From Clostridia bacterium (GTDB lineage: Bacteria; Bacillota; DULZ01): DNA of 64,000 nt. Within the stretch, counting starts at the first letter, position 1. Every line of letters starts with the position of its first letter. The DNA lies in NCBI GenBank assembly GCA_012840125.1, contig DULZ01000044.1:17975-81974 (forward strand), given 5' to 3'. Shown here in pieces: positions 41,875 to 55,889 of the stretch. The translations under genes were made by a program, and so were the position numbers. Below the pieces are notes generated by a model. It was not told the origin of the DNA, ran no database searches, and saw only the letters and a program-made list of their open reading frames with translations.

Positions 41875-41907
41875 CAAAAAAACAAGGCAGGGGATCGATC
41901 CCTGCCT
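41875..41907 (-). terminator. Terminator after the hybB-like gene
   Basis: AGGCAGGG/CCCTGCCT stem with a T-run on the minus strand. Confidence 0.6.
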
Positions 41908-41920
41908 AGCTGGAAACATT

Positions 41921-43081
41921 TTACGCCGCTTGAGCGTTTTTCCCGGCTTCCTCCGCCCCGGCATGCTCATGCCCGGCAAAAAGGTTGAAATTTTCGGCAA
42001 TAAAAGTGTATACCAGTACCCCCGCGGCAACCAGCATCGCCGTCACGCTGATCTCCATCCAGCTGGGAAAATAGGACCCGCCGGCTGCGCCCGCCATCCC
42101 AATTAGAGCCACGTTGAACCGGTTCAGCATCACGCCGCCCACCACAAGTGCACCAATTGTCGCAAGCCCCTGGCTGTTACGCCGTACAGCGGGAATAGAA
42201 GCCATGATGCCGGGAGCAATCACACCGACGACCATTTCCAGCAGCCACATGTTGCTTTCCAAGGAAGTGGTGAAGACGGTGCCAAGCTGGCCCCGCACGT
42301 ACAAGTCCGTCACTTTCACTAGGAAGTAAATGCCTAAGATGACCGGTAACCCTTTGGCAAAATCAGCCAAGATCGGAGTCTCCGACTTGAGCCCAAAAGC
42401 ACGGGTGGCTAAGCTTGTTTCCACGATAACCATCCCGATCCCCACCGCCAGGGCGCTCAGGAAAAACATGATGGGCAGGATCGGGGTCCACCACAGGGGA
42501 TGGAGTTTAGACGGTACCAGGAGAAACAGGGAGCCCAAGGAAGACTGGTGCAAAGTAGAAAGAATGATACCGGCACCAACCAGCGGAATAGTAATGCGGT
42601 GCAAAACCCTGATCGCCTTTTGCCGGCGGAATCTTTCGAACACCACCGGGCTGAACTCCAGCGCCAGCACCGTTAAATACAGCATGACACACCAGGCAAC
42701 CTCAAACATCACGGACCGGGGCTGCCACATAACGATGGGATGCCAGATGTTGTAGTATTTACCCAAGTCAAAGACCAGTCCCATCGCCACCAGCACATAA
42801 CCGATGAAGCCCGTTAAAATGGCCGGTCTTAAAAGGGGAGCAAATTTCTTCTTATTAAAGATGTAAACCGCTGCCGCCGTAGTAAAGGCGCCGGCAGCCA
42901 GGGCCACTCCACAAATCACGTCGAAAGCAATCCACAATCCCCAGGGATACTGGTCCGTGAGATTGGTTGCCGCCCCTAATCCTTTAAAAAAGCGCACGTA
43001 ACTGGATACTAAACCGAGGAGGACTATGGCGATCAATACTCCCCTGGTAGGTGTCATTTTGAAAGTCCACTTCCGCTTCAT
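41921..43081 (-). CDS. hybB: NrfD/HybB-family quinone-interacting membrane subunit
   Basis: TNLTDQYPWGLWIAFD, DLGKYYNIWHP, SVMFEVAWCV, LSTLHQSSLG, LNRFNV. Confidence 0.85.
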   Translation of the reverse strand: MKRKWTFKMTPTRGVLIAIVLLGLVSSYVRFFKGLGAATNLTDQYPWGLWIAFDVICGVALAAGAFTTAAAVYIFNKKKFAPLLRPAILTGFIGYVLVAMGLVFDLGKYYNIWHPIVMWQPRSVMFEVAWCVMLYLTVLALEFSPVVFERFRRQKAIRVLHRITIPLVGAGIILSTLHQSSLGSLFLLVPSKLHPLWWTPILPIMFFLSALAVGIGMVIVETSLATRAFGLKSETPILADFAKGLPVILGIYFLVKVTDLYVRGQLGTVFTTSLESNMWLLEMVVGVIAPGIMASIPAVRRNSQGLATIGALVVGGVMLNRFNVALIGMAGAAGGSYFPSWMEISVTAMLVAAGVLVYTFIAENFNLFAGHEHAGAEEAGKNAQAA

Positions 43082-43938
43082 TGCTTATCACCCCGATCCT
43101 TAGTCAACTGGTAAGCTGTTCCCAAGACCAGCGCACCCCCCACCACCACGGCGGGAATCTTGGATAGAGCCATCTGGGTGTATTCGGGCAGGGGCCGGGT
43201 TCCCACATTGGACGGGAAGCCCAACTGTTCAAAGGGTACATCTGACAGGAACATGAAAGATGTTCCTCCCACTTCTGCCAGGCCGTAAATATGAGGTACA
43301 TACTTATCAGGTTCGGCTTGCAGGCGAGCTTTTGCTTCCGCCACCAGCTCTTCCCTGGTGCCGAACAAAGTGGCTTTAGTGGGACAAGCGGAGGCACAAG
43401 CCGTTGGTTCCCCTGCTTTAACCTTATCCGCACAGAAAATGCATTTCCGGATCACGGGAAACGGGCTGTCCCATTGGTATTTCGGCACATTAAAAGGACA
43501 AGCCACCATGCAGTACCTGCACCCCATGCACTTGCCCCCGTCGTAAACCACCGGTCCTTCCGGTGTTTTAATCAAAGCCCCCACCAGGCAAGCGGAGACG
43601 CAAGCGGGATCATGGCAGTGGAAACATTGATGCCTGACAAAACGTTTTTCCTTGCTGCCCTTTATATCTACTTCATAAGACTTTACGGCCACCCAGGTCT
43701 CGGCGTCCAATACTTCATTTTGCGTACCGGACAGCCCGTTCTGCTGCTGGCATGCCATGTAGCACATACCGCAGCCGATACACTTGGTAATATCAATTAA
43801 CATGCCTTTGGCCTCCGGGCTTAGCGCAGGTGACGACCCGTGACCGGAGCCAATACCTGCTTGCGCTTTGCCTGCGGGGAACAAGGCTAAAGCGGCAGCG
43901 CCGAGACCGGCCATTTTCAGGAATTTTCTTCTATTCAT
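43078..43938 (-). CDS. hybA: Tat-exported 4x[4Fe-4S] protein, HybA/NrfC-like
   Basis: MNRRKFLK Tat signal; CIGCGMC, CFHCHDPAC, CMGCRYC, CIFC...ACASACP; C-terminal TM anchor. Confidence 0.88.
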   Translation of the reverse strand: MNRRKFLKMAGLGAAALALFPAGKAQAGIGSGHGSSPALSPEAKGMLIDITKCIGCGMCYMACQQQNGLSGTQNEVLDAETWVAVKSYEVDIKGSKEKRFVRHQCFHCHDPACVSACLVGALIKTPEGPVVYDGGKCMGCRYCMVACPFNVPKYQWDSPFPVIRKCIFCADKVKAGEPTACASACPTKATLFGTREELVAEAKARLQAEPDKYVPHIYGLAEVGGTSFMFLSDVPFEQLGFPSNVGTRPLPEYTQMALSKIPAVVVGGALVLGTAYQLTKDRGDKQ

Positions 43939-43985
43939 ACGGTATCAACCTCTACTTTCAAGCTCAGTTTTGCACCAGGCAGAAA

Positions 43986-44035
43986 TTGTGAATAATTTCT
44001 CTTTTATGGCTATATTTAGTGAAATATTTCTCTTT
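43986..44035. promoter_or_regulatory. Tandem Rex-like sites upstream of hybA
   Basis: TTGTGAATAATTTCTCTT and TAGTGAAATATTTCTCTT, 31 bp apart. Confidence 0.45.
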
Positions 44036-44065
44036 CTTCCTGAAAAATTTTTCGCGGGGCTTTTT

Positions 44066-44209
44066 TTACAGCAAACAACACACCATTAACCCCAACATCA
44101 AAGAGATGATTAGCCCGCCGCAGCTCACCAGTAACCAAGCCAGCAGCCCTTTCTTCTCACACCGGCATTCCAACGCGGCCAGCCCCGCCATGATTAAGGC
44201 AATATCCAT
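44066..44209 (-). CDS. Small hydrophobic Cys-rich protein C, 47 aa (not in ORF track)
   Basis: AAAGGGGGG RBS; extended -10 TG-c-TAAACT (44243-44251); MDIALIMAGLAALECRCEKKGLLAWLLVSCGGLIISLMLGLMVCCLL. Confidence 0.5.
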   Translation of the reverse strand: MDIALIMAGLAALECRCEKKGLLAWLLVSCGGLIISLMLGLMVCCLL

Positions 44210-44472
44210 AATTTTAACCCCCCTTTGTATTCTCTTACCTAGAGTTTAGCAAGAAATGATTGCAATGCAGGGGGATTATCCTGTCTTCTCACTGGCGGTT
44301 TTCTTGTCTTTTTCTTTCAAAAAATAATAGACAATGACATTTAATATACTACAGCAATAGTTCTTAGGAATTTTGTTGCATATCTCATGAATTTAATTAT
44401 CTTTTAGCAATCTAACCGGTTATATTGCCCAGGATTTTTATTAGTTTTTCGCAATATTATGGGCAAGAAAAT

Positions 44473-44668
44473 CAGACTGTAGACAAAAGGGTGTTCGGTG
44501 TTAATCCCAGGGCTGGGGAGCGAGGGAGCTCGAGAGAAAACGCCAACCTCTGAGCGCCGAAAGAATCGAATGGGAGGCGTCCGAGAGCCACCGAGGTCAT
44601 CCCCAAATAGGGCTCCTTGCAGCCGGCGATTAACACCGAACGCAAAGGAGCAGTTTGTCAACAAGCTG
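44473..44668. mobile_element. MITE-like element, 196 bp, with IS1182-like ends
   Basis: Terminal IR CAGACTGTAGACAAA / TTTGTCAACAAGCTG (12/15); internal IR GTGTTCGGTGTTAATC / GATTAACACCGAACGC (15/16); partial second copy at 30877; no transposase. Confidence 0.65.
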
Positions 44669-44694
44669 CAAGATAATACCATATTTATTGATGC

Positions 44695-45615
44695 TTAAGG
44701 CAGCATTCCGTCCATTTCCCCGCCTGCCTGGCCGGTCAAGGTGATCACCAGTTGTCCCGGCACACAGACGATGGATTGTCCCGGCCGGCTGATAAACCCG
44801 GTCCTGACACAGGCTTGATCAGGGCAGCCCGCAGCCTGGATGCGGATTTTACCTTCCCGCACCTCCACGGTATAGGTGTGGCCCCGGCCTTGTACCGGAT
44901 ACACCCCGTCCTCCTCCAGGGAAACCTTTAGAATCCTTTCCCCGCCCACTTTGACTTCCGCCATACCAGCGGCAGCGCCTTTCGCGCCTGGCCCAGTGAA
45001 CGGAACAGCAACGCTTAAGACCAGGCAACATGCCAAGAGGCTCACAGCCTTCCAGTCGGGGCGGCAAAAGGAAACGGATCTTCCCTCGAAAAGCTTGATC
45101 AGGGGACGACTCAGGCCTGCTACCAGGGCACCGCAGGGCACGGCTGCCAGGGTGAGCATCGGTAAATACCAGGCCAGGGCCCCATGACTCAAAAGAAAAC
45201 GTGCCGCCAGCAGCTGCCCCCAGTTATGGGCGACGGCACCGGCCATACTGGTCGTCACCAGGTCCCCCTTGTCTTGGCGGAACGCCTGCCAGGCATACAT
45301 GACCAGGATACTGGCCAATCCCCCGGTCAAGCCCAGGTAGAATCCTATGGATAATAATTTGCCTGTCAGGATGCCCCCCAGGACCTGGCGGCACACCACC
45401 AAAACAAAAGCCGGCCTCCAACCCCAGAGCTCCAACGCCAAGAGCGCCGCGGTATTGGCCAGCCCCAGCTTCACACCGGGTAATCCTAACGGGGGCAACA
45501 TCCCCTCCACCGCCTGCAGTATAAGAGCCAGTGCCAGCAGCACCCCCAAACGGGCCACCGGCTGGGCCCCTCTTAACCCGAGGGCGGCAGGTTTGGTTAG
45601 GGACAATTCTTTCAT
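44695..45615 (-). CDS. Fusion of a Gx-transporter (HepS-I-like) domain and a NusG-domain-II-like protein
   Basis: N-terminal PGVKLGLAN, GAVAHNWGQ; extra TM helix; C-terminal GCPDQACVRTGFI...IVCVP. Confidence 0.8.
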   Translation of the reverse strand: MKELSLTKPAALGLRGAQPVARLGVLLALALILQAVEGMLPPLGLPGVKLGLANTAALLALELWGWRPAFVLVVCRQVLGGILTGKLLSIGFYLGLTGGLASILVMYAWQAFRQDKGDLVTTSMAGAVAHNWGQLLAARFLLSHGALAWYLPMLTLAAVPCGALVAGLSRPLIKLFEGRSVSFCRPDWKAVSLLACCLVLSVAVPFTGPGAKGAAAGMAEVKVGGERILKVSLEEDGVYPVQGRGHTYTVEVREGKIRIQAAGCPDQACVRTGFISRPGQSIVCVPGQLVITLTGQAGGEMDGMLP

Positions 45616-45625
45616 AGCAGAACAC

Positions 45626-46657
45626 CTACTCAGGAAAGGATATGGAATCTTTCACGCCGCTGCTCACTTGTACATTCAAGTCCCGGTCAATCATGACACA
45701 ATCCACGCCGGGCCAGTTCTCCACCAGGGCCATGCCTGCTTCCGGCCCCAGGATAAAGACGGCTGTGGCCAGCCCATCCGCCAGCACCCCGCTGGGCGCC
45801 AGGATCGTCACACTGGTTAACTCCCGGGCCGGATAACCGGTAAAGGGATGCAATAAATGAGAAAAACGCTGTCCTTCGTAAAAGCGATAACGCTGGTAAT
45901 CACCGGAAGTGGTGACCGCCCGGTCCTGTACCGTCACCACGGCTATTGCCCGGGACGGGTCCCGCGGGTGGCGGATGCCCAGTTTCCAGGGCCGGCCTTC
46001 CGGATGCCGGCCCAGGACGTAATAATCACCACCGAAATCGATCAAGGCGTTTTCGATCCCCCAGCTTTTCACAAGGGCAGCAATCAGGTCCACAGCATAG
46101 CCTTTGGCGATACCTCCCACATCCAACTTCATCCCGGGCTGGGCCAGCTGCACCAGCCCGCGGGCCGGATCGAGCTTAAGCTCCCGGTAATCCACTAACC
46201 GGCAGGCTTGGGCCACCTCCGCCTGCCCGGGGGGTTGCCAGTTCTCCTGCGCCTCCGGTTTTGAGGCAGGCCCGATCTGCCACAGCTCCGCCAAGGGACC
46301 GATGGTGGGATCAAAATAACCTCCCGTCCTGGCGGCCAAGTCCCGGGCTTGTATCAATAAATCCATGGTCTTATCGCTCACGGGAACCTGTTGACCGGCC
46401 TGGGCATTAATGCGGCTGATGTCGCTGTCAGGGGAAAAACGGTTGAACAACCGGTCCATCTCCGCCAGCTCATTGATCACGGCTTCTTTTTGCGCACCGG
46501 TCAAGCCGGGGGTGGTTAAGCGGAAATAGGTATCCATGCTGAAGGTCTCCAACTGTTCCAGTCGGGGAGGTGGCTCTTTAGTGCAGCCCGGCCAAACCAC
46601 GGCCCCAAGAAGCACCAAGCACCACAGGCTCGCCCGGGCCAGTTTTTTCCCTCCCAT
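45626..46657 (-). CDS. apbE: FAD:protein FMN transferase lipoprotein ApbE
   Basis: Lipobox WPGC; SMDT, FDPTIGPL, DVGGIAKGY, TSGDYQR, ADGLATA. Confidence 0.93.
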   Translation of the reverse strand: MGGKKLARASLWCLVLLGAVVWPGCTKEPPPRLEQLETFSMDTYFRLTTPGLTGAQKEAVINELAEMDRLFNRFSPDSDISRINAQAGQQVPVSDKTMDLLIQARDLAARTGGYFDPTIGPLAELWQIGPASKPEAQENWQPPGQAEVAQACRLVDYRELKLDPARGLVQLAQPGMKLDVGGIAKGYAVDLIAALVKSWGIENALIDFGGDYYVLGRHPEGRPWKLGIRHPRDPSRAIAVVTVQDRAVTTSGDYQRYRFYEGQRFSHLLHPFTGYPARELTSVTILAPSGVLADGLATAVFILGPEAGMALVENWPGVDCVMIDRDLNVQVSSGVKDSISFPE

Positions 46658-46687
46658 GTCCTTCCCCTTTCATCATGCGGTTAGGCA

Positions 46688-47518
46688 TTAAGCCAGCAGT
46701 TTTTGTTCCGGGGATACGGTTTTCGTCAGTTCGATACAACCGGACGGGCATTTAGCGGCACAAGCACCGCAAGCGATGCATTTCGTCACATCTACCTGTG
46801 CCAGGTTGTTCACCATGGACACGGCTTGCTGCTCGCAGGCCTTCACGCAGGCCCGGCATGCCAAACAACCGACCTGGCAGTACTCCCTGACCATCTTTCC
46901 TTTATCATGGGAATTGCAGCGAACTACTAAAGGCACATCATAGTCCATTACAGCCAAAACTCTACGAGGACAAGCTGCCGCACAAGCACCGCAGCCGGTG
47001 CACTTTTCTTTATCCACCACCGGCAGGTGATCTTCGCCCAGGGTGATGGCACCGAAAACGCACACGGTGGTGCAGGTCCCCAAGCCCAGGCAGCCTTCAT
47101 GGCACCCCTTGGGACTGGACCCGATCAGGGACGCGGCCCGGCAGTCCTTGATCCCCTCGTATTGAGCCAACCACCTGGCCAGCTTGTAATCACCCCGGCA
47201 GCGTACCTTCACCACTTGTTTTTTCCGGGTTCCGGAAGCTTCTACCCCCAGAATGGCACAGATTTCTTTTTTCGCCTCGGCATCAACCACCCGGCAAGCA
47301 TCCACCGAGGCCGCTCCCGCCGCCAGGGCTTCAGTATAACCGGAACAGCCGCTGCAGCCGCAGCTGCCGCAGTTGGCGCCCGGCAAGAAGGAAGCCAGCA
47401 GCTCCACTTTGGGATCGCTGTCCACCTTGAACTTACCTGCCGCCCAGGCCAACCCTGCCGCAAACACAACCCCCAGTCCACCCATTACACCGGCGGAAAC
47501 CAAGACTTCCTTTAGCAT
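46688..47518 (-). CDS. rnfB: Rnf subunit B (polyferredoxin)
   Basis: TM anchor, LPGANCGSCG, GCLGLGTC, CTGCGAC, GCLACRAC, CIACGAC. Confidence 0.92.
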   Translation of the reverse strand: MLKEVLVSAGVMGGLGVVFAAGLAWAAGKFKVDSDPKVELLASFLPGANCGSCGCSGCSGYTEALAAGAASVDACRVVDAEAKKEICAILGVEASGTRKKQVVKVRCRGDYKLARWLAQYEGIKDCRAASLIGSSPKGCHEGCLGLGTCTTVCVFGAITLGEDHLPVVDKEKCTGCGACAAACPRRVLAVMDYDVPLVVRCNSHDKGKMVREYCQVGCLACRACVKACEQQAVSMVNNLAQVDVTKCIACGACAAKCPSGCIELTKTVSPEQKLLA

Positions 47519-47551
47519 TGTTGTTCCCCCTTTCCTTTTTTACTATCAGGC

Positions 47552-48133
47552 TCACATAGGCACTAACCCGGAAAAGCCCAGAAAAGCCATCGACATGATA
47601 CCGGCGATGATTAGGGCCAAGCTGGTCCCTTTAAAGGCCGGCGGCACGTCCGCAAATTCCAGTTCTTCCCTGATACCCGCCATCATCACCAGGGCAAATG
47701 TGAAACCTGCACCCGCTCCAATGGCAAAGACCGTGGTTTCCAAGAAAGTGTACGTGCTTCCGGCCACAATTAACGCAATGCCGAGGATGGCACAGTTAGT
47801 GGTAATCAAGGCCAAATAAATACCCATGGCTTGATACAACTGCGGGAAAAACTTTTTCAGCATCATCTCCAGCAGCTGCACTAAACAAGCAATCATCAAA
47901 ATGAATACCACGATTTTCATAAACTCCAGGCCCAAGGGATCCAGGATGTATTCGTAGACCAGCCAAGAAGCCATGGCGGACACCACAAGTACAAATGACG
48001 CGGCCAACCCCATGCCCCAGGCGGCATCCAGTTTCCGGGTCATGCCCAGGAAAGGACAGATGCCCAGGAAACGCGCCAGCACAAAGTTGTTGACCAGGGC
48101 GGATCCTACCAGCAAGAGCAGCAACTCTTTCAT
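47552..48133 (-). CDS. rnfA: Rnf subunit A
   Basis: NNFVLARFLGICPF, LITTNCAILG, AGIREE; both Fe-S Cys present. Confidence 0.95.
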   Translation of the reverse strand: MKELLLLLVGSALVNNFVLARFLGICPFLGMTRKLDAAWGMGLAASFVLVVSAMASWLVYEYILDPLGLEFMKIVVFILMIACLVQLLEMMLKKFFPQLYQAMGIYLALITTNCAILGIALIVAGSTYTFLETTVFAIGAGAGFTFALVMMAGIREELEFADVPPAFKGTSLALIIAGIMSMAFLGFSGLVPM

Positions 48134-48789
48134 GATTTCGCGGCCTCCTTCCCGACCAGCCTAATTTGATGCCTAGCGGCCTGCTGGAATTGACGCGCCC
48201 GGCGCATTTCCACAAAGTTGAGGACAAAGACGATGAGGCCCATGGTCAGGAAAGCCCCGGGAGGCATCTGCATGATCTTCCACGGTATAAAGCTTTCCCC
48301 CATGATTTGAAAACCAAACAGAGTGCCGGCACCCAGCAGTTCCCTGACGCAGCCGATGAAAGTCAAAGCCCAGGTAAAGCCTAAACCAGTGCCGACGGCA
48401 TCGGTAACAGCCCGGGAAATGGGCATTTTGGAGGCAAAGGCTTCGGCTCGCCCCAGGATAATGCAGTTCACGACGATGAGAGGCACAAATATGCCTAGAA
48501 TTTTATAAATCTCCGGCAGCATGGCTTTTAATAACAGATCCACAATGGTCACAAAAGTAGCGATAATCACGATATAGGCGGGGATGCGAATCTGGCTGGG
48601 AATTAGCTTTTTCAAAGCCGAGATGATGGTGCTGGAGCAGATTAAAACCGCCGTCGTAGCCAACCCCATGATCAAACCGCTTTCCGCAGAAGTGGTCACC
48701 GCCAGCGGGGGACACATCCCGATCAACATCCTAAAGGTCGGGTTTTCCCGGAACAGGCCCCGCAGGATATCATCAAAATGATGTTGCAT
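48130..48789 (-). CDS. rnfE: Rnf subunit E
   Basis: ENP...GMCPPLAVT, IRIP, PLIVVNCIILGRAE, PPGAF. Confidence 0.95.
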   Translation of the reverse strand: MQHHFDDILRGLFRENPTFRMLIGMCPPLAVTTSAESGLIMGLATTAVLICSSTIISALKKLIPSQIRIPAYIVIIATFVTIVDLLLKAMLPEIYKILGIFVPLIVVNCIILGRAEAFASKMPISRAVTDAVGTGLGFTWALTFIGCVRELLGAGTLFGFQIMGESFIPWKIMQMPPGAFLTMGLIVFVLNFVEMRRARQFQQAARHQIRLVGKEAAKS

Positions 48790-48801
48790 CTTTATCCCTC
48801 C

Positions 48802-49359
48802 TTACTCCTCTCCTACATAGGCCAGCACCTGCTGCACCGTAGTGCCCACCGTAGCCGTCACCGCTACCGAGGAAACGGTAGCCCCGGTAATGCCGTCCAC
48901 GTCTTGGCCTACGGCAAAGGGATCCCCCACCGGTTTCCCTGGAAACTGGCTCAAAAAGGCTTCATCGGTTTCAATGCGGGAACCCAAGCCCGGCGTCTCC
49001 CCGTGGCTCAACACTTTGATGCCGGCCAGGGAGTTAGTGCTGAGATCGATGCCGACGGCTATTTTCATCTCCCCGCCGTAGCCCGTTCCCACGGCCTCAT
49101 ACGCAATACCGATCCTGCGGTTGTTTTCATCCAACCCTTCATAGACTTGGGTGACCCCGGCCGGCAGCTCCCCCTGCGCTTCCACCGCTTGGAAACGCTG
49201 GGCCGCAGGCAGCACTTCCTTAAAGCCTTTACTGATCATTTCCTCCATCTGCCTGGCTTCCACGATGGGCATGGTAAAACTGTAAAACGCTCCTAATCCG
49301 CCACCGGAAATCGCTGCAATGAGACCGAGAGTCAAAATCAACTTGATGGCATTTTTCAT
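48802..49359 (-). CDS. rnfG: Rnf subunit G (covalent FMN)
   Basis: TM anchor, GYGG, HGETPGLG, intact DGITGAT flavinylation motif. Confidence 0.93.
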   Translation of the reverse strand: MKNAIKLILTLGLIAAISGGGLGAFYSFTMPIVEARQMEEMISKGFKEVLPAAQRFQAVEAQGELPAGVTQVYEGLDENNRRIGIAYEAVGTGYGGEMKIAVGIDLSTNSLAGIKVLSHGETPGLGSRIETDEAFLSQFPGKPVGDPFAVGQDVDGITGATVSSVAVTATVGTTVQQVLAYVGEE

Positions 49360-50306
49360 ATGGCGGCTCCCCTCCTTTTAGCCCGCAAGAAACGATTGAG
49401 CATGGGCGTTAAACCGTTCATGAGCAAGACAGCGTAAAAAAGGGCATCGGGATTCTGCCCGTAGTATCGCATCACAACCGTAAACAAACCCACACCTATC
49501 CCAAACACCAACCTGCCCCAAGGGGTAATCGGGTTGGTAACCGGGTCCCCGGCCAGGTAAAAAGCTCCCAGGATTAATCCCCCTACCAGCAAATGCCACA
49601 GGGGATCTTCGCCCACCAGGAGCATGAAAATGCCCACCGCGGCCAGCATACCGAGGGGGATTCTCCAATCCACGTAACCCTTGGCCACCAGTACCAGGCC
49701 TCCCAAAACCAGCGCCACCACGGCGAATTCCGCCATGAAACTACCCGTACTTCCCAGAAGCAGGGATTGATAACCGGGTAACGCTTCCCCGGCTTTCCAC
49801 AAATCCATCGGGCTTGGCACTCCCGTACCGCCGGAGAAAGGCAGGGTCCAATTGCTAACCTGTTCCGGGAAGGAAACAGCCAGGAAAACACGGCCTACCA
49901 CCGCCGGATTAAATGGGTTGCACCCGGTTCCACCGAAGACCTGCTTGCCAATGGTAATGGCAAAGACAGCACCCAGCATCGCTGCCCAAAAAGGCACCGT
50001 CGGGGGCAGGGTCAAAGCCAGAATCAACCCTGTTAAAACAGCCGTACCGTCCATGAGGCTTAAAGGCTTGTTTCTCAGTTTCAGGCAAGCTGCCTCCGTC
50101 AAGACCGCCGTACCCACACAGAGGGACAGCACCAGCAGGGCCGGCCAGCCGAACAGGTACAGCACCCAGAGCACCGCCGGCATTAATGAACCAATAGTCC
50201 AGTACACAATCTTGTCTACGGAAATGGCCGCATGAATGTGAGGCGGCGGGGAAGTAATCAGCCTCAAATGATAGATTCTTTTTTCCTCGGCCTTTAGCAC
50301 AGACAT
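49356..50306 (-). CDS. rnfD: Rnf subunit D, divergent flavinylation loop
   Basis: TSPPPH, KQVFGG...NPFNPA, GDPVTNP, LLMN; WTLPFSGGTGVPSP instead of D-x-x-(T/S)-x-A-T-P; start ATG 50306. Confidence 0.88.
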   Translation of the reverse strand: MSVLKAEEKRIYHLRLITSPPPHIHAAISVDKIVYWTIGSLMPAVLWVLYLFGWPALLVLSLCVGTAVLTEAACLKLRNKPLSLMDGTAVLTGLILALTLPPTVPFWAAMLGAVFAITIGKQVFGGTGCNPFNPAVVGRVFLAVSFPEQVSNWTLPFSGGTGVPSPMDLWKAGEALPGYQSLLLGSTGSFMAEFAVVALVLGGLVLVAKGYVDWRIPLGMLAAVGIFMLLVGEDPLWHLLVGGLILGAFYLAGDPVTNPITPWGRLVFGIGVGLFTVVMRYYGQNPDALFYAVLLMNGLTPMLNRFLRAKRRGAAI

Positions 50307-50332
50307 TTTTGTCACCTCCTTGACCAACGCTC

Positions 50333-51598
50333 CTAGCTGACCAGCATCTTTTTCGCCAGTCTCAGTAACTGCAGTAAGGGTTTCCCGGCAGGGCAAACAT
50401 AAGAGCACCGGCCGCACTCATTACACAACAAAACCCCTTCTACCTTGGCCGCTTCCCAGTTTTGTCGCGCTGCATAAGCGGCAATTCGCTGGGGCAATAG
50501 TTTAACCTGGCAGACTTGGTAGCACCGGCCGCAGTGAATGCAAGCCCGGTCCAGGTAATGAAAAACCTCATCTTCACAGAAAGTCAGGATGGAAAAAACT
50601 CCTTTGCCGACAGGCAAGTCAAGCCTGGGTACGGAAGTACCGTTGAGAGCGCAGCCTACCACCACCTTGGCCAGCTCCGTTTCCTTGACTTCGGCGGAAA
50701 TGAGCACTTCTCCCAGGTCAGTTCCCAACGGCACTTGATAATAGCCCGGTCTCCTGACCCCGTTTCCTTCCACCAAAATCAACTGTTCCATATACGGTTC
50801 TCCCAGGAACAGGGCCCGGTGAATTGCCCTGGCTTGCTGCAGAGTGACCGGCAAAATCTCTTCCGCCAGCGGCGAGGCGCCCCGCTCCAGGGGACGACCG
50901 GCGATTTCTTCCACCGCCCATTTCACCGGCATATCGGGTGAATTCCCGGCACCGGGCAAAGTCCTGGCTTTAGGGAATTCGCTCAACAATGTCTTAAGGG
51001 TGGGACTGGGGTGGCTGTGCCAGACTAACCCAGCCTCCGGGTACAGTGTGAATAAGACCCGCAAGCCGGAGATTACCTCATGAAACCAAGGAGGCAACTC
51101 TTCCCCACCGGACCCGTTAAGCGCCCCCACCCACCCGTGGAGAAGGAGGGTATGGATGCCGGCTCCGGGAGACGGCAGCCCGTACACAAAAGTGGTCCCG
51201 TCCACAAAAGTAATCACAATCCCCGCTGCATTTAATCGTTCATAAATCTCCGCCGCCGTCATGCCATTTATACCTGTTATTTTGGACAACTCTACACTTT
51301 CCCCCAAACCGTCATTCTCCACCACTACCGTGGTGGCCGGCACACCTTCACAGTTATCCATCACCGCAATTTGTTTCACTCTACCGCTCACGGGACTGTG
51401 AACCGCTGCCCCTCCGGTCACCGCCACCGGCTGTCCCCGTAAAACTCTCGTGCCGGGCTCCACCAGCACCTCACAGGGCAAATCTTGACGCTGGCACGGT
51501 ATCCTGACCACCGGCGGAAGGGTCACAGGCAGTATCTCCAGGTCATGGGGAACAGATTGCTTCTTTTCGTCATGTTTTCCGAAAGTCGATGATATCAT
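50333..51598 (-). CDS. rnfC: Rnf subunit C homolog lacking FMN/NADH motifs
   Basis: VHSPVSG, AAGIV, SLBB region and two Fe-S motifs (CIHCGRC, CNECGRCSYVCP) kept; GGAGFP, NGAECEP, YPQG, GGPMMG replaced. Confidence 0.85.
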   Translation of the reverse strand: MISSTFGKHDEKKQSVPHDLEILPVTLPPVVRIPCQRQDLPCEVLVEPGTRVLRGQPVAVTGGAAVHSPVSGRVKQIAVMDNCEGVPATTVVVENDGLGESVELSKITGINGMTAAEIYERLNAAGIVITFVDGTTFVYGLPSPGAGIHTLLLHGWVGALNGSGGEELPPWFHEVISGLRVLFTLYPEAGLVWHSHPSPTLKTLLSEFPKARTLPGAGNSPDMPVKWAVEEIAGRPLERGASPLAEEILPVTLQQARAIHRALFLGEPYMEQLILVEGNGVRRPGYYQVPLGTDLGEVLISAEVKETELAKVVVGCALNGTSVPRLDLPVGKGVFSILTFCEDEVFHYLDRACIHCGRCYQVCQVKLLPQRIAAYAARQNWEAAKVEGVLLCNECGRCSYVCPAGKPLLQLLRLAKKMLVS

Positions 51599-51610
51599 AT
51601 AGTTGCCCCC

Positions 51611-51712
51611 TTGTGATAGTGTTAATTATCTCTAATTATTCTAACATCTTGAGGATTCGCAATTCTAAGCAAATACTGGCGGACTGATAACTTTTTTCTA
51701 ACAATTGTCTAA
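51611..51712 (-). promoter_or_regulatory. rnf operon promoter region
   Basis: Extended -10 TG-t-TAGAAT (51638-51646); Rex-like TTGTGATAGTGTTAATTA (51611-51628); TTAGA direct repeat at 11-bp spacing (51697-51712). Confidence 0.5.
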
Positions 51713-51743
51713 TGCTGGTTGCCATCCCATTACTTAGACAAAG

Positions 51744-51808
51744 AAAGACCCGCAAGCAGGCAACGGCCCCCGAACACTTCCGGCCGGTCATGCTTGCGGG
51801 CTCTTTTT
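51744..51808. terminator. Long-loop hairpin after the two-component operon
   Basis: CCCGCAAGCA / TGCTTGCGGG stem flanked by A- and T-runs. Confidence 0.5.
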
Positions 51809-51818
51809 CCGGCATTTT

Positions 51819-52541
51819 TTAATCCGCATTTCTCACTTGTACCTCTCCGCCGCCGAACTTGTAACCTACCCCCCAGACGGTTTTAATGTAGCGCGGATTG
51901 GATGGGTCTTTCTCGATTTTTTCCCGCAGGCGACTGACCATTACTGTGACGTTATCTGCATCACCTATATAATCGCTGTCCCAGATCTGGTCCAACAAGT
52001 TCTCTCTCGTAAAAACATAGTCGGGATGAGATGCGAGCAACCACAACAGCTTAAACTCTTTCGGCGTCAGCTGTACCTCTTTACCGTCGAGCATTACCAA
52101 ATGCCCGCGCAAATCGATAAAGAGACCATTGCATTTAATGACATTGGGTTCTGCCGCTTTACTGCTCCTTTGCCCGGCGGTCCTTCGCAACATGGCTTGC
52201 ACCCGGAGAGCCAGCTCCGAAGGGCTGAATGGCTTGGTGAGGTAATCATCGCCACCCATCCTGAAGCCCAGCAGCCGGTCTAACTCGTCCCCCCGGGCGG
52301 ACAGGATGATAATGGGCACATCCGATTCTTCTCTCATCACCCGGCAGACCTCAAAGCCATCAACTTTCGGCAGCATCAAATCCAGGATCACCAGGTCGGG
52401 TTTTTCGCGCCGGAACACTTCAATGGCCTCTTCCCCGTCGCTGGCGGTAATGATTTCGTGCCCCTCCCTGGACAGCCGGTGCACAATCACCTTTAGAATA
52501 TCAGGTTCATCGTCTACCGCCAAGATTCTGCTACCTGCCAT
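51819..52541 (-). CDS. OmpR-family response regulator
   Basis: VDDEP, LDLMLP, GGDDYLTKPF, LTPKEF, IKTVWGVGY winged HTH. Confidence 0.95.
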   Translation of the reverse strand: MAGSRILAVDDEPDILKVIVHRLSREGHEIITASDGEEAIEVFRREKPDLVILDLMLPKVDGFEVCRVMREESDVPIIILSARGDELDRLLGFRMGGDDYLTKPFSPSELALRVQAMLRRTAGQRSSKAAEPNVIKCNGLFIDLRGHLVMLDGKEVQLTPKEFKLLWLLASHPDYVFTRENLLDQIWDSDYIGDADNVTVMVSRLREKIEKDPSNPRYIKTVWGVGYKFGGGEVQVRNAD

Positions 52542-54225
52542 CTTCTGTCACCCCCGCTTCTTTTAAGATTTTTGGTATCGTAAAGTAAAAATTGGATCCC
52601 ATACCTAAATCGCTTTCCACCCAGATCCTCCCCCCATGCATTTCCACAAAGCTCTTCGCAATAGCCAGGCCCAATCCTGTGCCCGGGTGCTTGCGGGTAG
52701 ACGAACCGTCCACTTGACGGAACGCCTCAAAAATATATTCCTGTTGTTCGGGAGCAATGCCTATCCCCGTGTCGCTGACGCAGACCAGCACTTCCTGCTC
52801 ATGCTCCTTATAGCAAGCTTTGATGCGCACCAATCCTCCCGCATCAGTGAATTTCACGGCATTGCTGATCAAGTTGACCAGGACCTGATCTACTTTCTCC
52901 TTGTCTGCGTACACCTCTGTACCGGGAAGTTCTTCCTCCACCAGTATCCTGACTTCCTTTTTTAAGGCGATGGGCTCCATGCGATGGGCCACATCCCGGA
53001 TCACATCTGCCATGGCAAACCAGGAAGGCAGTAAACCCATCTTTTTCGCTTCGATTTTGGCCATATCCAGAATAGCATTGATGGAAGTCAACAATCGCTG
53101 GCTGCCTCGCAGGACGTCGTTGAGGTATTCTTTTTGCAGGTCTGTCAACTCTCCTCCCACCCCCTCTAACAGGAGCTCCACAAAGGCCGTAATGGAAGTC
53201 AGCGGTGTGCGGAGCTCATGGCTCACGCTGGCCAGGAACTCTGACTTTAACTTATTCGCTTCCGCCAAACGGCGGTTGGCTTTCCGCAACTCTTCCTGCT
53301 GCTGCTTCAGAATCTCGTTGGCATGCCGCAGTTCGGCGGTTCGCTCGGCCACCTGGTGTTCCAGGTCATCGTAATATCGTTTCAGGCGGGTGGCCATACT
53401 GTCCAATTGCTTCGCCAGCTGGCGAATTTCCACCGGAATGGTAATGTTAGGCAAGGGATAATCCAAGTGCCCTTCCCCGATGGCCGTGGCGGCCCAAGCC
53501 AGTTTCGTCAACGGGCGTTCCACCAGCTGCCGCACAAACCAGTAAATAGCCAGGGCACTTAACACGATGAGGGAGCCGGTGATGGCCACTTGGGCGATGG
53601 TTTCAGTACGCAGGGTTTCCTCCAGCACCACCATGGGTATCCCTAGACTCACGGCCCCGGCCAGTTCCCCCAGTTCATACCGGGGTACTTCCTGGGAAAA
53701 GGCAATGCGGCTGTCATTGCTGTGACAAGTCAGGCAGGGCTCTTCAATATGGATCGGCAATAAATACCGGAAATACCTCCTGCCGTCGATGGTATCAATG
53801 CCCCAGGCCTCTTGGGCATTCTGACCTGCCCGCAGTTGGCCTAACAGCTCCAGCTCAAATGCATCGGGTGCATGGAGGTCATCACTGCTAGGCAGCCAGA
53901 TTTCTTTAAAAAACCAGGCCTCATCCCCGCGAAACAGCTCCCGCACCCCTTTTTCCGCCGCCGCCGGGTCCAAGTGTTCAAACTGGGCCAGGTTCTTGGG
54001 ATCGGTACCGGGATAGTAATACTGGTAACTCTCTGCCACGAAAGCCCGCGTAGCCAAAAACTGGGACGCAGCCACCCTGGCCTTGTCCATCAGTTCGGCT
54101 TCCGCCCTGGCTTTTTGCCGCTCGAAAGTCCAAACAAAACTTACCACGGACACCCAGATGGTAATGATGGCCAGACACAAAACCAACCGGACTCCCAGCT
54201 TGTCAAGCAATCTGGCGTTTTTCAT
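52531..54225 (-). CDS. Sensor histidine kinase with an extracytoplasmic heme-c (DUF3365-like) domain and HAMP
   Basis: TM - YFRYLLPIHIEEPCLTCH - TM, HAMP, SHELRTPL, NLISNAVKF, GTGLGL. Confidence 0.9.
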   Translation of the reverse strand: MKNARLLDKLGVRLVLCLAIITIWVSVVSFVWTFERQKARAEAELMDKARVAASQFLATRAFVAESYQYYYPGTDPKNLAQFEHLDPAAAEKGVRELFRGDEAWFFKEIWLPSSDDLHAPDAFELELLGQLRAGQNAQEAWGIDTIDGRRYFRYLLPIHIEEPCLTCHSNDSRIAFSQEVPRYELGELAGAVSLGIPMVVLEETLRTETIAQVAITGSLIVLSALAIYWFVRQLVERPLTKLAWAATAIGEGHLDYPLPNITIPVEIRQLAKQLDSMATRLKRYYDDLEHQVAERTAELRHANEILKQQQEELRKANRRLAEANKLKSEFLASVSHELRTPLTSITAFVELLLEGVGGELTDLQKEYLNDVLRGSQRLLTSINAILDMAKIEAKKMGLLPSWFAMADVIRDVAHRMEPIALKKEVRILVEEELPGTEVYADKEKVDQVLVNLISNAVKFTDAGGLVRIKACYKEHEQEVLVCVSDTGIGIAPEQQEYIFEAFRQVDGSSTRKHPGTGLGLAIAKSFVEMHGGRIWVESDLGMGSNFYFTIPKILKEAGVTEDGR

Positions 54226-54355
54226 CGGTACCGTCTCCGTTCTGATAAAATAAAGCAACACAAACTCAAAGAAAGGTTAACTTCTATGCAATATTTTAAC
54301 ATGTTCTAGCGTTCACAAACAAGGTTAAAACAGGTAATTTTGATTATTTCATCGA

Positions 54356-54637
54356 CTATTTTTTATTCTCTTCCCCCGCCTGGTATAGTAAATCACAGGC
54401 TTTTTCTACCAGGTGGGCGGGAACGTATATTTCCACACCGAAGGAAGATCCCGTATAAATCTTCGCCAGGCTGCTGTACCCGGGATACCGGCGCATGGTC
54501 GGAACCTCATTGGTTTCCAGCCAACCTGTAATAATGTCTGCTTCCACATCGTTCAACACACTCTGCAAGAAGACCCAACTGCTGCTTCCGTTATGCTCTG
54601 CCTCTCCGGCATCGGATGAGCCAAACGGCATGGGCAT
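54356..54637 (-). CDS. DUF2007-like putative signal-transducing protein
   Basis: W.FL, EADIITGWLETNEVP, VEIYVP...A..LL pattern. Confidence 0.65.
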   Translation of the reverse strand: MPMPFGSSDAGEAEHNGSSSWVFLQSVLNDVEADIITGWLETNEVPTMRRYPGYSSLAKIYTGSSFGVEIYVPAHLVEKACDLLYQAGEENKK

Positions 54638-54821
54638 GGCCGGTCACCTCGGCATTCCTGTGATTTTTCTAGTTTGAACCCCATATGCCTCTACCATACA
54701 TATTACGCTTCTTAAGACTGTATTTCCTGCTCCGGAATTTTTTCTTGCTGAAACCCGCCAGCAGGATTACAATATGACTATCTAATATTTACCAGTTTTC
54801 TGGGGGGAGGAATAAAATTGC

Positions 54822-55889
54822 ATGAAAGACTTGCTGTTCGCGTTTAACTGCATCGAAGAAAATTCGCGCCATGGATTGTTGGGAGAATGCGCCGGTCCTC
54901 ATACCGTGGAACTGCTGCATCAAACCCTCCATGCCGCCGGTCACCGGGTCTGGCCCATCAATGTGCAATCCCCGGAACAGTTGACCTCCTATCTCCAAAC
55001 CATACCCCGGCCGGTCATGGCCTTTGTCTACGCAGAAGGTTTTATCCAACAGCCTGAAACTTTATGGAATGGAGCAGGGCAGAGCCTGTTACGGGAAATA
55101 TTATCACAGCACCATATTCCTTCCACTCATTCCACGGCGGAAGTAATGCAGCTTTGCCGTCACAAGCATTTAACCTCTACCCGGTTGGCAGCCTTCGGCT
55201 TACCGGTACCCCCGTTTATTACCGGCACGCCGAGCCGGTTTTTGCTTTCCCGGGAAGAGCCTGCGCTGGACTTTCCCTTGTTTGTCAAACCCGCCAGCGG
55301 CGGCGCCAGCTTGGGTATCGACGAAAGTTCCGTAGTGTTTAACCAAAGCCAGCTCAAACGAAAAATCGAACTGCTTTACCAGCAACTGGGCGACCTGCCG
55401 GTGATAATTGAAACCTACCTGCCCGGACGCGAATATACGGTTGGGGTGATCGGCAACGAGATCAAGTACGTCCTTCCCCCCATGGCTTTTTCTCCGGAAA
55501 CGGGAATTAGGGACTTGGAAAGAAAAAGAAATCCCCTGGACAACTCCTGGGAATTTCTAGCACCGGGCGACCCGCGCTGGCACCGGATCGTGAGTTTGGC
55601 TCATGCTGCTTTTGATGCCCTGAAAGCTTCCGATGTCGTCAGGATCGATTTGAAAGAGGACAGGCACGGGAACATCCATATCATCGATGTCAACGGCACC
55701 CCCGCCCTCGGCGCCAACGCTTCCCTGGTAGCCATGGCGGAATACATTGACATCAGCTACACCCAGCTCATCAGTACCATCTTGAAGAGCAGCTATGAAC
55801 GGCACCGGCTCGACCCGCCGGGCAGGCTGCTGGAGCTGGCCGCCGAAGGCATTGACAAGCTGATCTCTTATGCCACCCTGGTGGCATGA
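54822..55889 (+). CDS. D-Ala-D-Ala-ligase-like ATP-grasp enzyme
   Basis: FVKPASGGASLGI, ETYLPGREYTVG, RIDL, DVNGTP; N-terminus not typical of Ddl. Confidence 0.75.
   Translation: MKDLLFAFNCIEENSRHGLLGECAGPHTVELLHQTLHAAGHRVWPINVQSPEQLTSYLQTIPRPVMAFVYAEGFIQQPETLWNGAGQSLLREILSQHHIPSTHSTAEVMQLCRHKHLTSTRLAAFGLPVPPFITGTPSRFLLSREEPALDFPLFVKPASGGASLGIDESSVVFNQSQLKRKIELLYQQLGDLPVIIETYLPGREYTVGVIGNEIKYVLPPMAFSPETGIRDLERKRNPLDNSWEFLAPGDPRWHRIVSLAHAAFDALKASDVVRIDLKEDRHGNIHIIDVNGTPALGANASLVAMAEYIDISYTQLISTILKSSYERHRLDPPGRLLELAAEGIDKLISYATLVA

What the first reader, a model, noticed from the sequence alone, without database searches (positions are those of the whole stretch)
46688..51598. Non-canonical Rnf complex: RnfC has lost its FMN/NADH site while the outward electron path is intact
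Seen: at the positions of canonical RnfC motifs, G(M/L)GGAxFP reads ITFVDGTTF, N(G/A)AECEPY reads HGWVGALN, KYPQG reads GNSPD and GGPMMG reads GCALNG. Both Fe-S motif sets remain and the frame is intact. RnfB clusters, RnfA/E Cys ligands, the RnfG DGITGAT motif and ApbE are all present. Known: canonical flow is ferredoxin-RnfB-RnfA/E-RnfG-RnfD-RnfC-NAD+. Inference: this complex cannot use NAD(H) and acts as a one-way conduit between cytoplasmic ferredoxin and an extracytoplasmic partner, with RnfC/D kept as scaffold or repurposed. This is the best candidate for an undescribed system in the window.
Basis: partly seen in the sequence, partly recalled or inferred. Interest (0 to 1): 0.88.

Follow-up and report, generated by a model that had tools for sequence, protein, structure and literature searches.

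The report
Rnf pump without its NAD site
This anaerobe's only Rnf membrane redox pump has lost the pocket that normally passes electrons to NAD+ yet is kept under selection, so it probably feeds ferredoxin electrons to a neighbouring quinone-linked iron-sulfur module, as the methanogen Rnf feeds a cytochrome.

Summary
RnfC (50333-51598, minus strand) aligns end to end with solved RnfC structures. All four NuoF-type FMN/NAD(H) motifs are replaced, both 4Fe-4S motifs are intact, and the Complex1_51K domain is not detected. This is not decay. Thirteen protein clusters share the state (34-76% pairwise RnfC identity between operons). dN/dS is about 0.10. Only the former flavin domain evolves unusually fast. 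The genome (97% complete) has no second rnfC.

RnfD in the clade also departs from the ApbE flavinylation motif, while RnfG, RnfA/E, RnfB and ApbE look canonical.

A Tat-exported HybA-like 4x[4Fe-4S] protein follows the operon in 6 of 8 motif-less loci and 0 of 73 canonical ones. In most clade loci a HybB/NrfD-like membrane subunit comes next. MenA lies nearby. Relatives carry two or three FMN domains in RnfG.

The state is not unique. Methanosarcinales RnfC and RnfD, from the ferredoxin:methanophenazine Rnf with MmcA, show the same two losses, and so do two other bacterial lineages.

Best reading: an NAD-independent Rnf whose electrons leave on the outer face, probably to menaquinone. The partner and the direction are inferred. 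It is a new variant of a known kind.

The parts
50333..51598 (-). rnfC variant, 421 aa. It has the RnfC_N barrel, a degenerate NuoF-like domain without FMN/NAD(H) motifs, an SLBB domain and a 2x[4Fe-4S] ferredoxin domain.
   Evidence: Domain and alignment results. AF2 model: pLDDT 80.5; best PDB matches are RnfC (TM 0.66), then NqrA (0.58).
49356..50306 (-). rnfD, 316 aa from the ATG at 50306. The loop that normally carries D-x-x-[ST]-G-A-T-P-L reads GGTGVPSPM; only a Ser aligns with the FMN-bearing Thr.
48802..49359 (-). rnfG, 185 aa, with one FMN_bind domain and a canonical DGITGAT flavinylation motif.
48130..48789 (-). rnfE, with both conserved Cys (GMCPP, VVNCI).
47552..48133 (-). rnfA, with both conserved Cys (GICPF, TTNCA).
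46688..47518 (-). rnfB, 276 aa, a polyferredoxin-type input subunit (PF04060 plus several 4Fe-4S motifs).
45626..46657 (-). apbE, the FAD:protein FMN transferase.
44695..45615 (-). Membrane protein with Hpre_diP_synt_I and NusG_II domains. It is also common next to canonical clostridial rnf operons, so it is not specific to the variant.
44066..44209 (-). Conserved 47-aa ORF, read by eye as a two-helix membrane protein, upstream of the hybA-like gene.
43078..43938 (-). HybA/HmcB-like protein with a Tat signal (RRKFLK), four 4Fe-4S motifs and a C-terminal hydrophobic anchor.
41921..43081 (-). HybB/HmcC-like NrfD-family membrane subunit, a putative quinone site.
41885..41907 (-). Terminator-like hairpin with a T-run after hybB. 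It is the best such site in the cluster.
51819..54261 (-). Two-component system directly upstream: a histidine kinase with a Tll0287-like sensor domain and an OmpR-type regulator. Its position is conserved in the family and in PH28_bin88.

Best explanation
This is an NAD-independent variant of the Rnf complex. All six subunits are kept.

Shown:
- RnfC has lost the NuoF-type FMN/NAD(H) pocket.
- RnfD does not fit the ApbE flavinylation motif.
- The ferredoxin input subunit RnfB, the RnfA/E cysteine site, the flavinylated RnfG and ApbE all look canonical.

Inferred: electrons from reduced ferredoxin cross the membrane through RnfB, RnfA/E and RnfG-FMN, and this step is coupled to ion translocation as in other Rnf/Nqr enzymes. 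They then leave on the outer face instead of returning through RnfD and RnfC to NAD+.

The most likely acceptor is the neighbouring Tat-exported HybA-like 4x[4Fe-4S] protein with its HybB/NrfD-like partner. That would pass electrons to menaquinone and make the ensemble a ferredoxin:menaquinone oxidoreductase. It may be reversible, that is, driven by the ion gradient towards ferredoxin reduction.

RnfD, and RnfC with its two 4Fe-4S clusters, are retained under selection. Their role is probably structural or in the ion path, comparable to NqrA in Na+-NQR.

The functional precedent is the Methanosarcina ferredoxin:methanophenazine Rnf. Here a HybA/HybB-type module would take the place of the cytochrome MmcA.
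For: 1. Motif loss with intact Fe-S motifs. PF01512 is absent and TIGR01945 scores below its cut-off.

2. The state is maintained. Thirteen protein clusters share it; RnfC identity between operons runs from 34 to 76%. For pairs with dS of 0.5-0.8, dN/dS is 0.10 for RnfC as a whole, 0.13-0.17 for residues 101-250 and 0.06-0.07 for the C-terminal part. At matched RnfA/E identity, the former flavin domain is far more diverged than in canonical operons (47 vs 84%, 25 vs 59%). The C-terminal part is about as conserved as in canonical operons for close pairs (81 vs 83%, 74 vs 73%) and somewhat less for distant ones (49 vs 61%).

3. It is the only rnfC in a 97%-complete genome.

4. The RnfD motif is non-canonical in every clade member. 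It is present in 141 of 147 canonical loci by regex, and 3 of the 6 exceptions are close variants of the motif.

5. The same double loss occurs in Methanosarcinales (rnfC_Methano equivalog hits next to a 5-6-heme ORF), in a Proteiniclasticum-type operon and in a proteobacterial MAG. In the tree sample the two losses agree in 60 of 60 rows.

6. Among loci with at least 8 kb downstream, a HybA-like gene is present in 6 of 8 motif-less loci and 0 of 73 canonical ones. In L105 it overlaps the preceding gene by 4 nt, so it lies in the same operon.

7. RnfG carries 2 FMN_bind domains in L021, L022 and L108 and 3 in L105. The two aligned two-domain proteins keep canonical flavinylation motifs in both domains.

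8. MenA scores 245 bits, about 6 kb beyond the window end. The HybA/HybB paralogue elsewhere in the genome follows a Tat-exported [FeFe] hydrogenase. That shows how such modules are used here.
Against: - No biochemical data exist, and the partner and the direction of flow are inferred from gene neighbourhood only.
- A sister genus (G001, 91% complete) keeps the small-ORF-hybA-hybB unit at the syntenic site without any rnf. The module therefore has an Rnf-independent role.
- In the window a gap of about 750 bp, with promoter-like sites, separates hybA from the rnf-apbE block.
- The eight Fe-S cysteines of RnfC are invariant and its ferredoxin domain is under canonical-level constraint. A pure scaffold would not obviously need this. 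NqrA lost its clusters.
- The Ser of RnfD that aligns with the FMN-bearing Thr is invariant. ApbE can use Ser and tolerates single motif changes, so some flavin may still bind there.
- The co-loss of the RnfC and RnfD motifs rests on only 2-3 independent events, and the sign test is not significant.
That enzyme could already provide a ferredoxin-to-quinone route.
Confidence: 0.55

Rival explanations
1. The U-shaped path is kept but ends elsewhere. RnfD binds flavin non-covalently, or through the invariant Ser. The two 4Fe-4S clusters of RnfC then pass electrons to, or take them from, another cytoplasmic partner instead of NAD+. That partner could be a ferredoxin-like protein or a flavoprotein that docks where the FMN domain used to act.
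For: The Fe-S cysteines are invariant, and the C-terminal part of RnfC is about as conserved as in canonical enzymes for close pairs. The Ser in the RnfD loop and the following P-[LM]-E-[LM]-W are conserved. ApbE accepts Ser and tolerates single substitutions in the motif. The HybA/HybB module can exist without rnf.
Against: No candidate partner gene is conserved in or next to the operon. The RnfD loop departs from the motif at several positions at once, and those positions vary within the clade. The Methanosarcinales enzymes, which work without NAD, delete that loop altogether. The extra FMN domains on RnfG point outward, not inward.
Confidence: 0.2
2. The outward conduit is real, but the acceptor is a c-type cytochrome or an extracellular acceptor rather than HybA/HybB and menaquinone. 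Candidates include the multihaem protein at 16759-17580. This would parallel Methanosarcina MmcA.
For: The window encodes a cytochrome c7/MtrC-like multihaem protein. The Methanosarcinales loci have a 5-6-haem ORF next to rnfC.
Against: No cytochrome gene lies in or beside the operon in any clade locus. The only neighbour specific to the clade is HybA-like. A shared Rex-like operator linking the cytochrome, rnf and hybA is not statistically supported.
Confidence: 0.15
3. RnfC still binds FMN and NAD(H) through non-canonical residues, and the complex is an ordinary ferredoxin:NAD+ oxidoreductase.
For: The overall fold is predicted to remain RnfC-like (TM 0.66 to 9eri_C). The protein length and domain order are unchanged.
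Against: All four motifs are lost at once. Residues 101-250 evolve much faster than in canonical RnfC and reach about 25% identity between distant clade members. An active-site domain would not be expected to drift this far.
Confidence: 0.05
4. The operon is decaying and non-functional.
For: Two cofactor sites are lost, and RnfC is the fastest-evolving subunit.
Against: All frames are intact in more than ten loci. dN/dS is 0.04-0.17 for every subunit and domain. Synteny is conserved across three lineages.
Confidence: 0.02

Closest known systems
Rnf of Methanosarcina acetivorans and other Methanosarcinales (MmcA-RnfCDGEAB, Na+-translocating ferredoxin:methanophenazine oxidoreductase)
   Same: It has the six Rnf subunits and does not use NAD+. 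As shown here, RnfC lacks all four FMN/NAD(H) motifs while keeping both 4Fe-4S motifs, and RnfD lacks the flavinylation motif. Electrons go to a membrane carrier through an extra outer-face redox protein.
   Different: The archaeal partner is a multihaem cytochrome encoded upstream of rnfC; here it would be a Tat Fe-S protein with an NrfD-type subunit downstream. The archaeal RnfD deletes the loop, whereas this clade keeps it with an invariant Ser. The two groups are not sisters in the RnfC and RnfD trees. The window's RnfC scores 161.6 bits against the 650-bit cut-off of NF041837.
Canonical Rnf (ferredoxin:NAD+ oxidoreductase; A. woodii 9ERI, C. tetanomorphum 7ZC6, A. vinelandii 8AHX)
   Same: Gene order rnfCDGEAB with apbE. 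RnfA, E, G and B match their family models, and RnfC has the same overall fold.
   Different: The FMN/NAD(H) site in RnfC is missing, the RnfD flavinylation motif is non-canonical, and a HybA/HybB-like module is linked to the operon.
Na+-NQR (NqrA-F)
   Same: NqrA is an RnfC homologue that has lost its cofactors and is kept as a non-redox subunit. In NQR electrons end on a quinone. The RnfC model is the next-best structural match to NqrA.
   Different: There is no NqrF; the input subunit is RnfB. RnfC keeps both 4Fe-4S clusters. NqrB keeps its covalent FMN and reduces the quinone itself, whereas here RnfD has lost the motif.
NQR/RNF-like unidirectional systems (Meheust et al. 2021, eLife; PMC8238504)
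   Same: These use part of the Rnf/Nqr machinery for one-way electron flow to an outer-face FMN-binding domain.
   Different: They are two-protein systems built on an RnfD-like protein fused to an NqrF-like NAD(P)H domain. Here all six subunits are kept, and the ferredoxin-RnfB-RnfA/E branch would be the one in use.
HybA/HybB of E. coli hydrogenase 2 and HmcB/HmcC of Desulfovibrio (NrfC/NrfD-type quinone modules)
   Same: A Tat-exported four-cluster ferredoxin with a C-terminal anchor, paired with an NrfD-family membrane subunit. The best NCBIfam hits are HmcB/HybA and HmcC/HybB.
   Different: Scores are below the equivalog cut-offs. No hydrogenase, molybdoenzyme or cytochrome gene is adjacent.

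Membership tests
Rnf complex (RnfABCDGE-type ferredoxin:NAD+ oxidoreductase) | Six subunits C, D, G, E, A and B encoded together | tested here: met
   Pfam and NCBIfam hits for all six, in the order rnfCDGEAB
Rnf complex (RnfABCDGE-type ferredoxin:NAD+ oxidoreductase) | Four Cys of RnfA/RnfE that hold the intramembrane Fe-S centre | tested here: met
   RnfA has GICPF and TTNCA; RnfE has GMCPP and VVNCI. Ligand positions follow PMC9588780.
Rnf complex (RnfABCDGE-type ferredoxin:NAD+ oxidoreductase) | RnfG FMN_bind domain with the D-x-x-[ST]-G-A-[ST] motif, and ApbE present | tested here: met
   DGITGAT in RnfG; PF04205; ApbE PF02424 at 288 bits
Rnf complex (RnfABCDGE-type ferredoxin:NAD+ oxidoreductase) | RnfC NuoF-like FMN/NAD(H) site (GGAxFP, NxECEPY, KYPQG, GGPMMG; PF01512) | tested here: not met
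   All four motifs are replaced; no PF01512 hit; TIGR01945 scores 195.6 against a cut-off of 245.95
Rnf complex (RnfABCDGE-type ferredoxin:NAD+ oxidoreductase) | RnfC C-terminal 2x[4Fe-4S] motifs | tested here: met
   C353/356/359/363 and C392/395/398/402, invariant in the clade
Rnf complex (RnfABCDGE-type ferredoxin:NAD+ oxidoreductase) | RnfD covalent-FMN motif D-x-x-[ST]-G-A-T-P-L | tested here: not met
   The loop reads GGTGVPSPM; only the acceptor position is conserved, as Ser. Whether any flavin is attached cannot be told from sequence.
Rnf complex (RnfABCDGE-type ferredoxin:NAD+ oxidoreductase) | Ferredoxin:NAD+ oxidoreductase activity coupled to ion transport | not testable with these tools
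   Needs biochemistry
Archaeal Rnf (Methanosarcinales, ferredoxin:methanophenazine) | RnfC without NAD(H)/FMN motifs and RnfD without the flavinylation motif | tested here: met
   Shared state
Archaeal Rnf (Methanosarcinales, ferredoxin:methanophenazine) | Multihaem cytochrome MmcA encoded with the operon | tested here: not met
   No ORF with several CxxCH motifs in or beside the operon in the clade loci scanned (L021, L105), and no cytochrome family among the called genes of the other clade loci. The archaeal loci have a 5-6-haem ORF.
Archaeal Rnf (Methanosarcinales, ferredoxin:methanophenazine) | Equivalog scores and common descent with the archaeal subunits | tested here: not met
   rnfC_Methano scores 161.6 against a cut-off of 650. 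The clade is separate from the archaea in the RnfC and RnfD trees.
Na+-NQR | NqrF (FAD, 2Fe-2S, NADH) as input and a cofactor-free NqrA | tested here: not met
   RnfB is present instead of NqrF, and RnfC keeps its Fe-S motifs
HybA/HybB- or HmcB/HmcC-type quinone module | Tat signal, four 4Fe-4S motifs and a paired NrfD-family membrane subunit | tested here: met
   PF10518 and PF13247 in the Fe-S protein, PF03916 in the membrane subunit; the genes overlap by 4 nt (43078-43081)
HybA/HybB- or HmcB/HmcC-type quinone module | Equivalog-level identity and an adjacent catalytic or cytochrome subunit | tested here: not met
   HmcB 272 against 420, HybA 224 against 263, HmcC 338 against 550, HybB 306 against 450. 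No hydrogenase or cytochrome gene is adjacent.

The most novel reading that the evidence does not exclude
Rnf complexes that serve membrane or outer-face acceptors all release electrons at the outer-face flavin of RnfG. The RnfD-RnfC return branch then becomes dispensable for catalysis and loses its flavin sites. This has happened repeatedly: in this Clostridia clade, in Methanosarcinales and in other lineages.

In this clade the exit would be wired through one to three RnfG flavin domains into a Tat-exported HybA-like ferredoxin and an NrfD-type subunit. The result would be a previously undescribed bacterial ion-pumping ferredoxin:menaquinone oxidoreductase. It would also be a living intermediate on the road from RnfC to the cofactor-free NqrA.

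If true, this would also answer where electrons leave the methanogen Rnf, which is still stated as unknown.
Probability: 0.3. Interest if true: 0.8.

Novelty: new variant of a known kind. Interest (0 to 1): 0.62.

Why it matters
Rnf is routinely annotated and modelled as a ferredoxin:NAD+ oxidoreductase. For this organism, and for other lineages with the same losses, that assignment would be wrong, and so would energy and redox budgets of anaerobic digester and oil-reservoir communities built on it.

The clade gives a bacterial counterpart to the methanogen Rnf, whose electron exit route is still unknown. It also gives a concrete, testable candidate partner in the HybA/HybB-like module.

RnfC is caught part-way to the NqrA state, with the flavin site gone and the Fe-S clusters kept. 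That bears on how Na+-NQR arose from Rnf.

Tried and rejected
1. A new Cys-ligated metal or Fe-S site replacing FMN. C35 and C316 are new and conserved. However, C42 and C156 also occur in canonical RnfCs, C156 is Trp in the window's own protein, and residues 101-250 drift fast. This reading is not supported.

2. A second, canonical rnf in the genome. None was found. The other TIGR01945 hits are NuoF-like or ferredoxin fragments.

3. Descent from the archaeal Rnf by gene transfer. The clade is monophyletic (98-100 support) and is not sister to the archaea in either tree.

4. A statistical test of RnfC/RnfD co-loss. Concordance is perfect, but only 2-3 independent events exist, so the test is not significant.

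5. A phyletic test of Rnf/HybA-HybB coupling. It failed as a strict rule, because G001 has the module without rnf.

6. A riboswitch or other known RNA in 41000-55000. None was found at E <= 0.1.

7. A Rex-like operator shared by the cytochrome, rnf and hybA. There were 4 hits against 1.7 expected, and 8 of 100 shuffles did as well. The rnfC site is not among the hits.

8. A metagenome scan for more clade members. It gave two short fragments with clade-level identity (L130, L136) and one 37% partial match (L201) whose full ORF keeps the canonical motifs.

10. Literature searches for a motif-less bacterial RnfC or an Rnf-NrfD link found nothing relevant.

Full report
**What is there.** A co-directional gene cluster lies on the minus strand. 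In order it encodes:
- a histidine kinase with a Tll0287-like sensor domain (52531-54261) and an OmpR-type regulator (51819-52541);
- rnfC (50333-51598), rnfD (49356-50306), rnfG (48802-49359), rnfE (48130-48789), rnfA (47552-48133) and rnfB (46688-47518);
- apbE (45626-46657) and a membrane protein with Hpre_diP_synt_I and NusG_II domains (44695-45615);
- after a gap of about 750 bp that holds a conserved 47-aa ORF (44066-44209), a Tat-exported HybA/HmcB-like four-cluster ferredoxin (43078-43938) and a HybB/HmcC-like NrfD-family membrane protein (41921-43081).

The best terminator-like site of the region follows the last gene (41885-41907).

RnfC aligns over its whole length with the RnfC chains of the three solved Rnf complexes (E 9e-38 to 9e-24). 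Pfam finds RnfC_N, a weak SLBB domain and the ferredoxin domain, but not Complex1_51K. TIGR01945 matches only the two flanks and stays below its cut-off (195.6 against 245.95). Both CxxCxxCxxxC motifs are intact. According to the structural literature, this stretch of canonical RnfC is the NuoF-like module that holds FMN and opens to NAD+. An AlphaFold2 model (pLDDT 80.5) keeps the RnfC fold. Its best PDB matches are RnfC (TM 0.66) and then NqrA (TM 0.58). RnfA, RnfE, RnfG, RnfB and ApbE carry their expected ligands and motifs.

**It is a maintained state, not decay.**
- In 5.8 billion clustered proteins the query has nine close relatives (52-76% identity). None has a Complex1_51K hit.
- An exhaustive search of 1.84 billion representatives adds three at 36-40% identity that also lack the motifs. 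There is then a gap to canonical RnfCs at about 31%.
- For three operons with unsaturated dS (0.5-0.8), dN/dS is 0.10 for RnfC as a whole, 0.13-0.17 for residues 101-250 and 0.06-0.07 for the C-terminal part. Other subunits give 0.04-0.12.
- I compared these operons with 74 canonical operons at the same RnfA/E divergence. The former flavin domain is far more diverged (47 vs 84% identity for close pairs, 25 vs 59% for distant ones). The C-terminal SLBB-plus-ferredoxin part is about as conserved as in canonical enzymes for close pairs (81 vs 83%, 74 vs 73%) and somewhat less for distant ones (49 vs 61%).

So the middle domain has lost most of its specific constraint. The protein, and above all its Fe-S domain, is still needed. 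The genome (97% complete) has no other rnfC.

**A second break in RnfD.** Canonical RnfD carries D-x-x-[ST]-[GS]-A-T-P-L, the ApbE motif. It is present in 141 of 147 canonical loci by regex, and three of the six exceptions are close variants. In the clade the loop reads GVPS-PM, VIQS-PL, PTTS-PL and similar. Only the acceptor position (Ser) and the following P-[LM]-E-[LM]-W are conserved. Because ApbE can use Ser and tolerates single changes, sequence alone cannot exclude some flavinylation. The defined motif is nevertheless not met.

**The state is not unique.** The same pattern scan found other motif-less RnfCs.
- All Methanosarcinales copies lack the motifs. Five of them pass the NCBI equivalog model for the Methanosarcina RnfC and sit next to a 5-6-haem ORF, which is MmcA.
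- A Proteiniclasticum-type operon lacks them, in a genome that also has two canonical rnfC genes.
- A proteobacterial MAG lacks three of the four.

In each of these the RnfD motif is also missing, and the archaea and the Proteiniclasticum type delete the loop altogether. Of 30 motif-less loci, 25 had a scorable RnfD and none of those has the motif. On the RnfD and RnfC trees the clade studied here is monophyletic (100 and 98 support) and is not sister to the archaea. The losses therefore arose at least two or three times. With so few independent events, the perfect concordance is not statistically significant.

The Methanosarcina enzyme is a known Na+-translocating ferredoxin:methanophenazine oxidoreductase that does not use NAD. 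Its internal electron route is stated to be unknown. One preprint says its cofactor sites are conserved. The alignments here show that this does not hold for the flavin sites of RnfC and RnfD.

Earlier notes of this scan report similar RnfC losses in sulfate reducers, Limnochordia, Omnitrophota and gut Clostridia. I did not test them.

**What the electrons may go to.**
- Among loci with at least 8 kb downstream of rnfC, a HybA-like gene is present in 6 of 8 motif-less loci (all from this clade) and in 0 of 73 canonical ones. The ApbE and NusG_II genes, by contrast, are common next to canonical clostridial rnf operons.
- The link holds in three lineages: the window's family, Clostridiales bacterium PH28_bin88 (37% RnfC identity) and GCA_049323775 (38%). 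In the last, the HybA-like gene overlaps the preceding gene and no NrfD gene follows.
- RnfG has one FMN_bind domain in the window and its nearest relatives, two in L021, L022 and L108, and three in L105. The two aligned two-domain proteins keep canonical flavinylation motifs in both domains. That is the pattern expected of an outer-face flavin wire.
- The organism has MenA about 6 kb beyond the window.
- Its other HybA/HybB pair sits behind a Tat-exported [FeFe] hydrogenase. In this genome such pairs therefore connect outer-face redox proteins to the quinone pool.
- The rnf-linked HybA has its own Tat signal and no catalytic neighbour.

**Limits.**
- A sister genus, G001, keeps the small-ORF-hybA-hybB unit at the syntenic site with no rnf in the genome. 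The module is a separate unit and can work without Rnf.
- The intergenic gap in the window has promoter-like sites.
- The conserved Fe-S domain of RnfC is not explained by a pure scaffold role.
- The direction of flow (ferredoxin oxidation or ion-driven ferredoxin reduction), the coupling ion and the acceptor are all inferred.
- No known RNA element and no significant shared operator were found.

**Verdict.** This is a bacterial, HybA/HybB-linked counterpart of the NAD-independent archaeal Rnf, and so a new variant of a known kind. I put about 0.8 on 'no NAD(H) chemistry at RnfC'. I put about 0.55 on the full statement, including an outer-face exit, with HybA/HybB and menaquinone as the most likely but unproven acceptor.

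Noticed in passing
window 44066-44209 (-): Unannotated 47-aa ORF (MDIALIMAGLAALECRCEKKG...), read by eye as two hydrophobic helices. It is conserved upstream of the hybA-like gene in L101, L103, L106, L108 and L022. A weak match (38% identity, E 0.5) lies at the same position in G001, which has no rnf. It seems to belong to the hybA/hybB unit.
   Followed up: partly
L021 12211-13296; L022 4485-5549; L108 12235-13299; L105 8188-9834: RnfG of clade relatives is 354-548 aa with two or three tandem FMN_bind domains. The two aligned two-domain proteins (L021, L022) keep canonical flavinylation motifs in both domains. The window's RnfG has one domain.
   Followed up: partly
L116-L127 and L096 (Methanosarcinales genomes G041-G073): Methanosarcinales RnfC lacks all four FMN/NAD(H) motifs, and their RnfD lacks the flavinylation loop. 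A preprint states that the cofactor sites are conserved in M. acetivorans Rnf.
   Followed up: partly
L049/L114 and L110, L113 (genome G042, Proteiniclasticum sp.): One genome holds a complete motif-less rnf operon (RnfC and RnfD both lacking their flavin motifs) alongside two canonical rnfC genes.
   Followed up: no
L210 (G001:C8:100500-120400), 7005-9252: A sister genus has the small ORF, hybA-like (64%) and hybB-like (75%) genes next to the same downstream neighbour as in the window. The whole rnf-apbE block is absent, and no rnfC was found in that genome.
   Followed up: partly
L211 (G000:C62:10000-28000), 6082-9612: The own genome encodes a Tat-signal [FeFe] hydrogenase (518 aa, large and small subunit domains fused) followed by a HybA-like (no Tat signal) and a HybB-like gene. 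This looks like an outer-face, quinone-linked FeFe hydrogenase.
   Followed up: partly
window 52531-54261 (-): The histidine kinase upstream of rnfC has a Tll0287-like sensor domain (67.5 bits). The same kinase-regulator pair precedes rnfC throughout the family and in PH28_bin88, but not in L105.
   Followed up: partly
window 16759-17580 (-): ORF with cytochrome c7, MtrC/MtrF-domain and NrfB-like hits, so a multihaem c-type cytochrome in a Clostridia-class genome. It is a possible alternative outer-face partner.
   Followed up: no
G000:C36:88013-88843 (about 6 kb beyond the window end): MenA (245 bits, above cut-off) is present; no MqnA/MqnD family hit was found. The classical menaquinone pathway is therefore likely.
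   Followed up: partly
window 17562-17577 and 43987-44002: Rex/CRP-like palindromes (TGTGA-N6-TCACA type) lie upstream of the cytochrome gene and of hybA. The count in the window is not above chance, and the rnfC upstream region has only a half-site.
   Followed up: partly
L091 14128-16233: In the proteobacterial motif-less operon, RnfB is 701 aa, far longer than usual.
   Followed up: no
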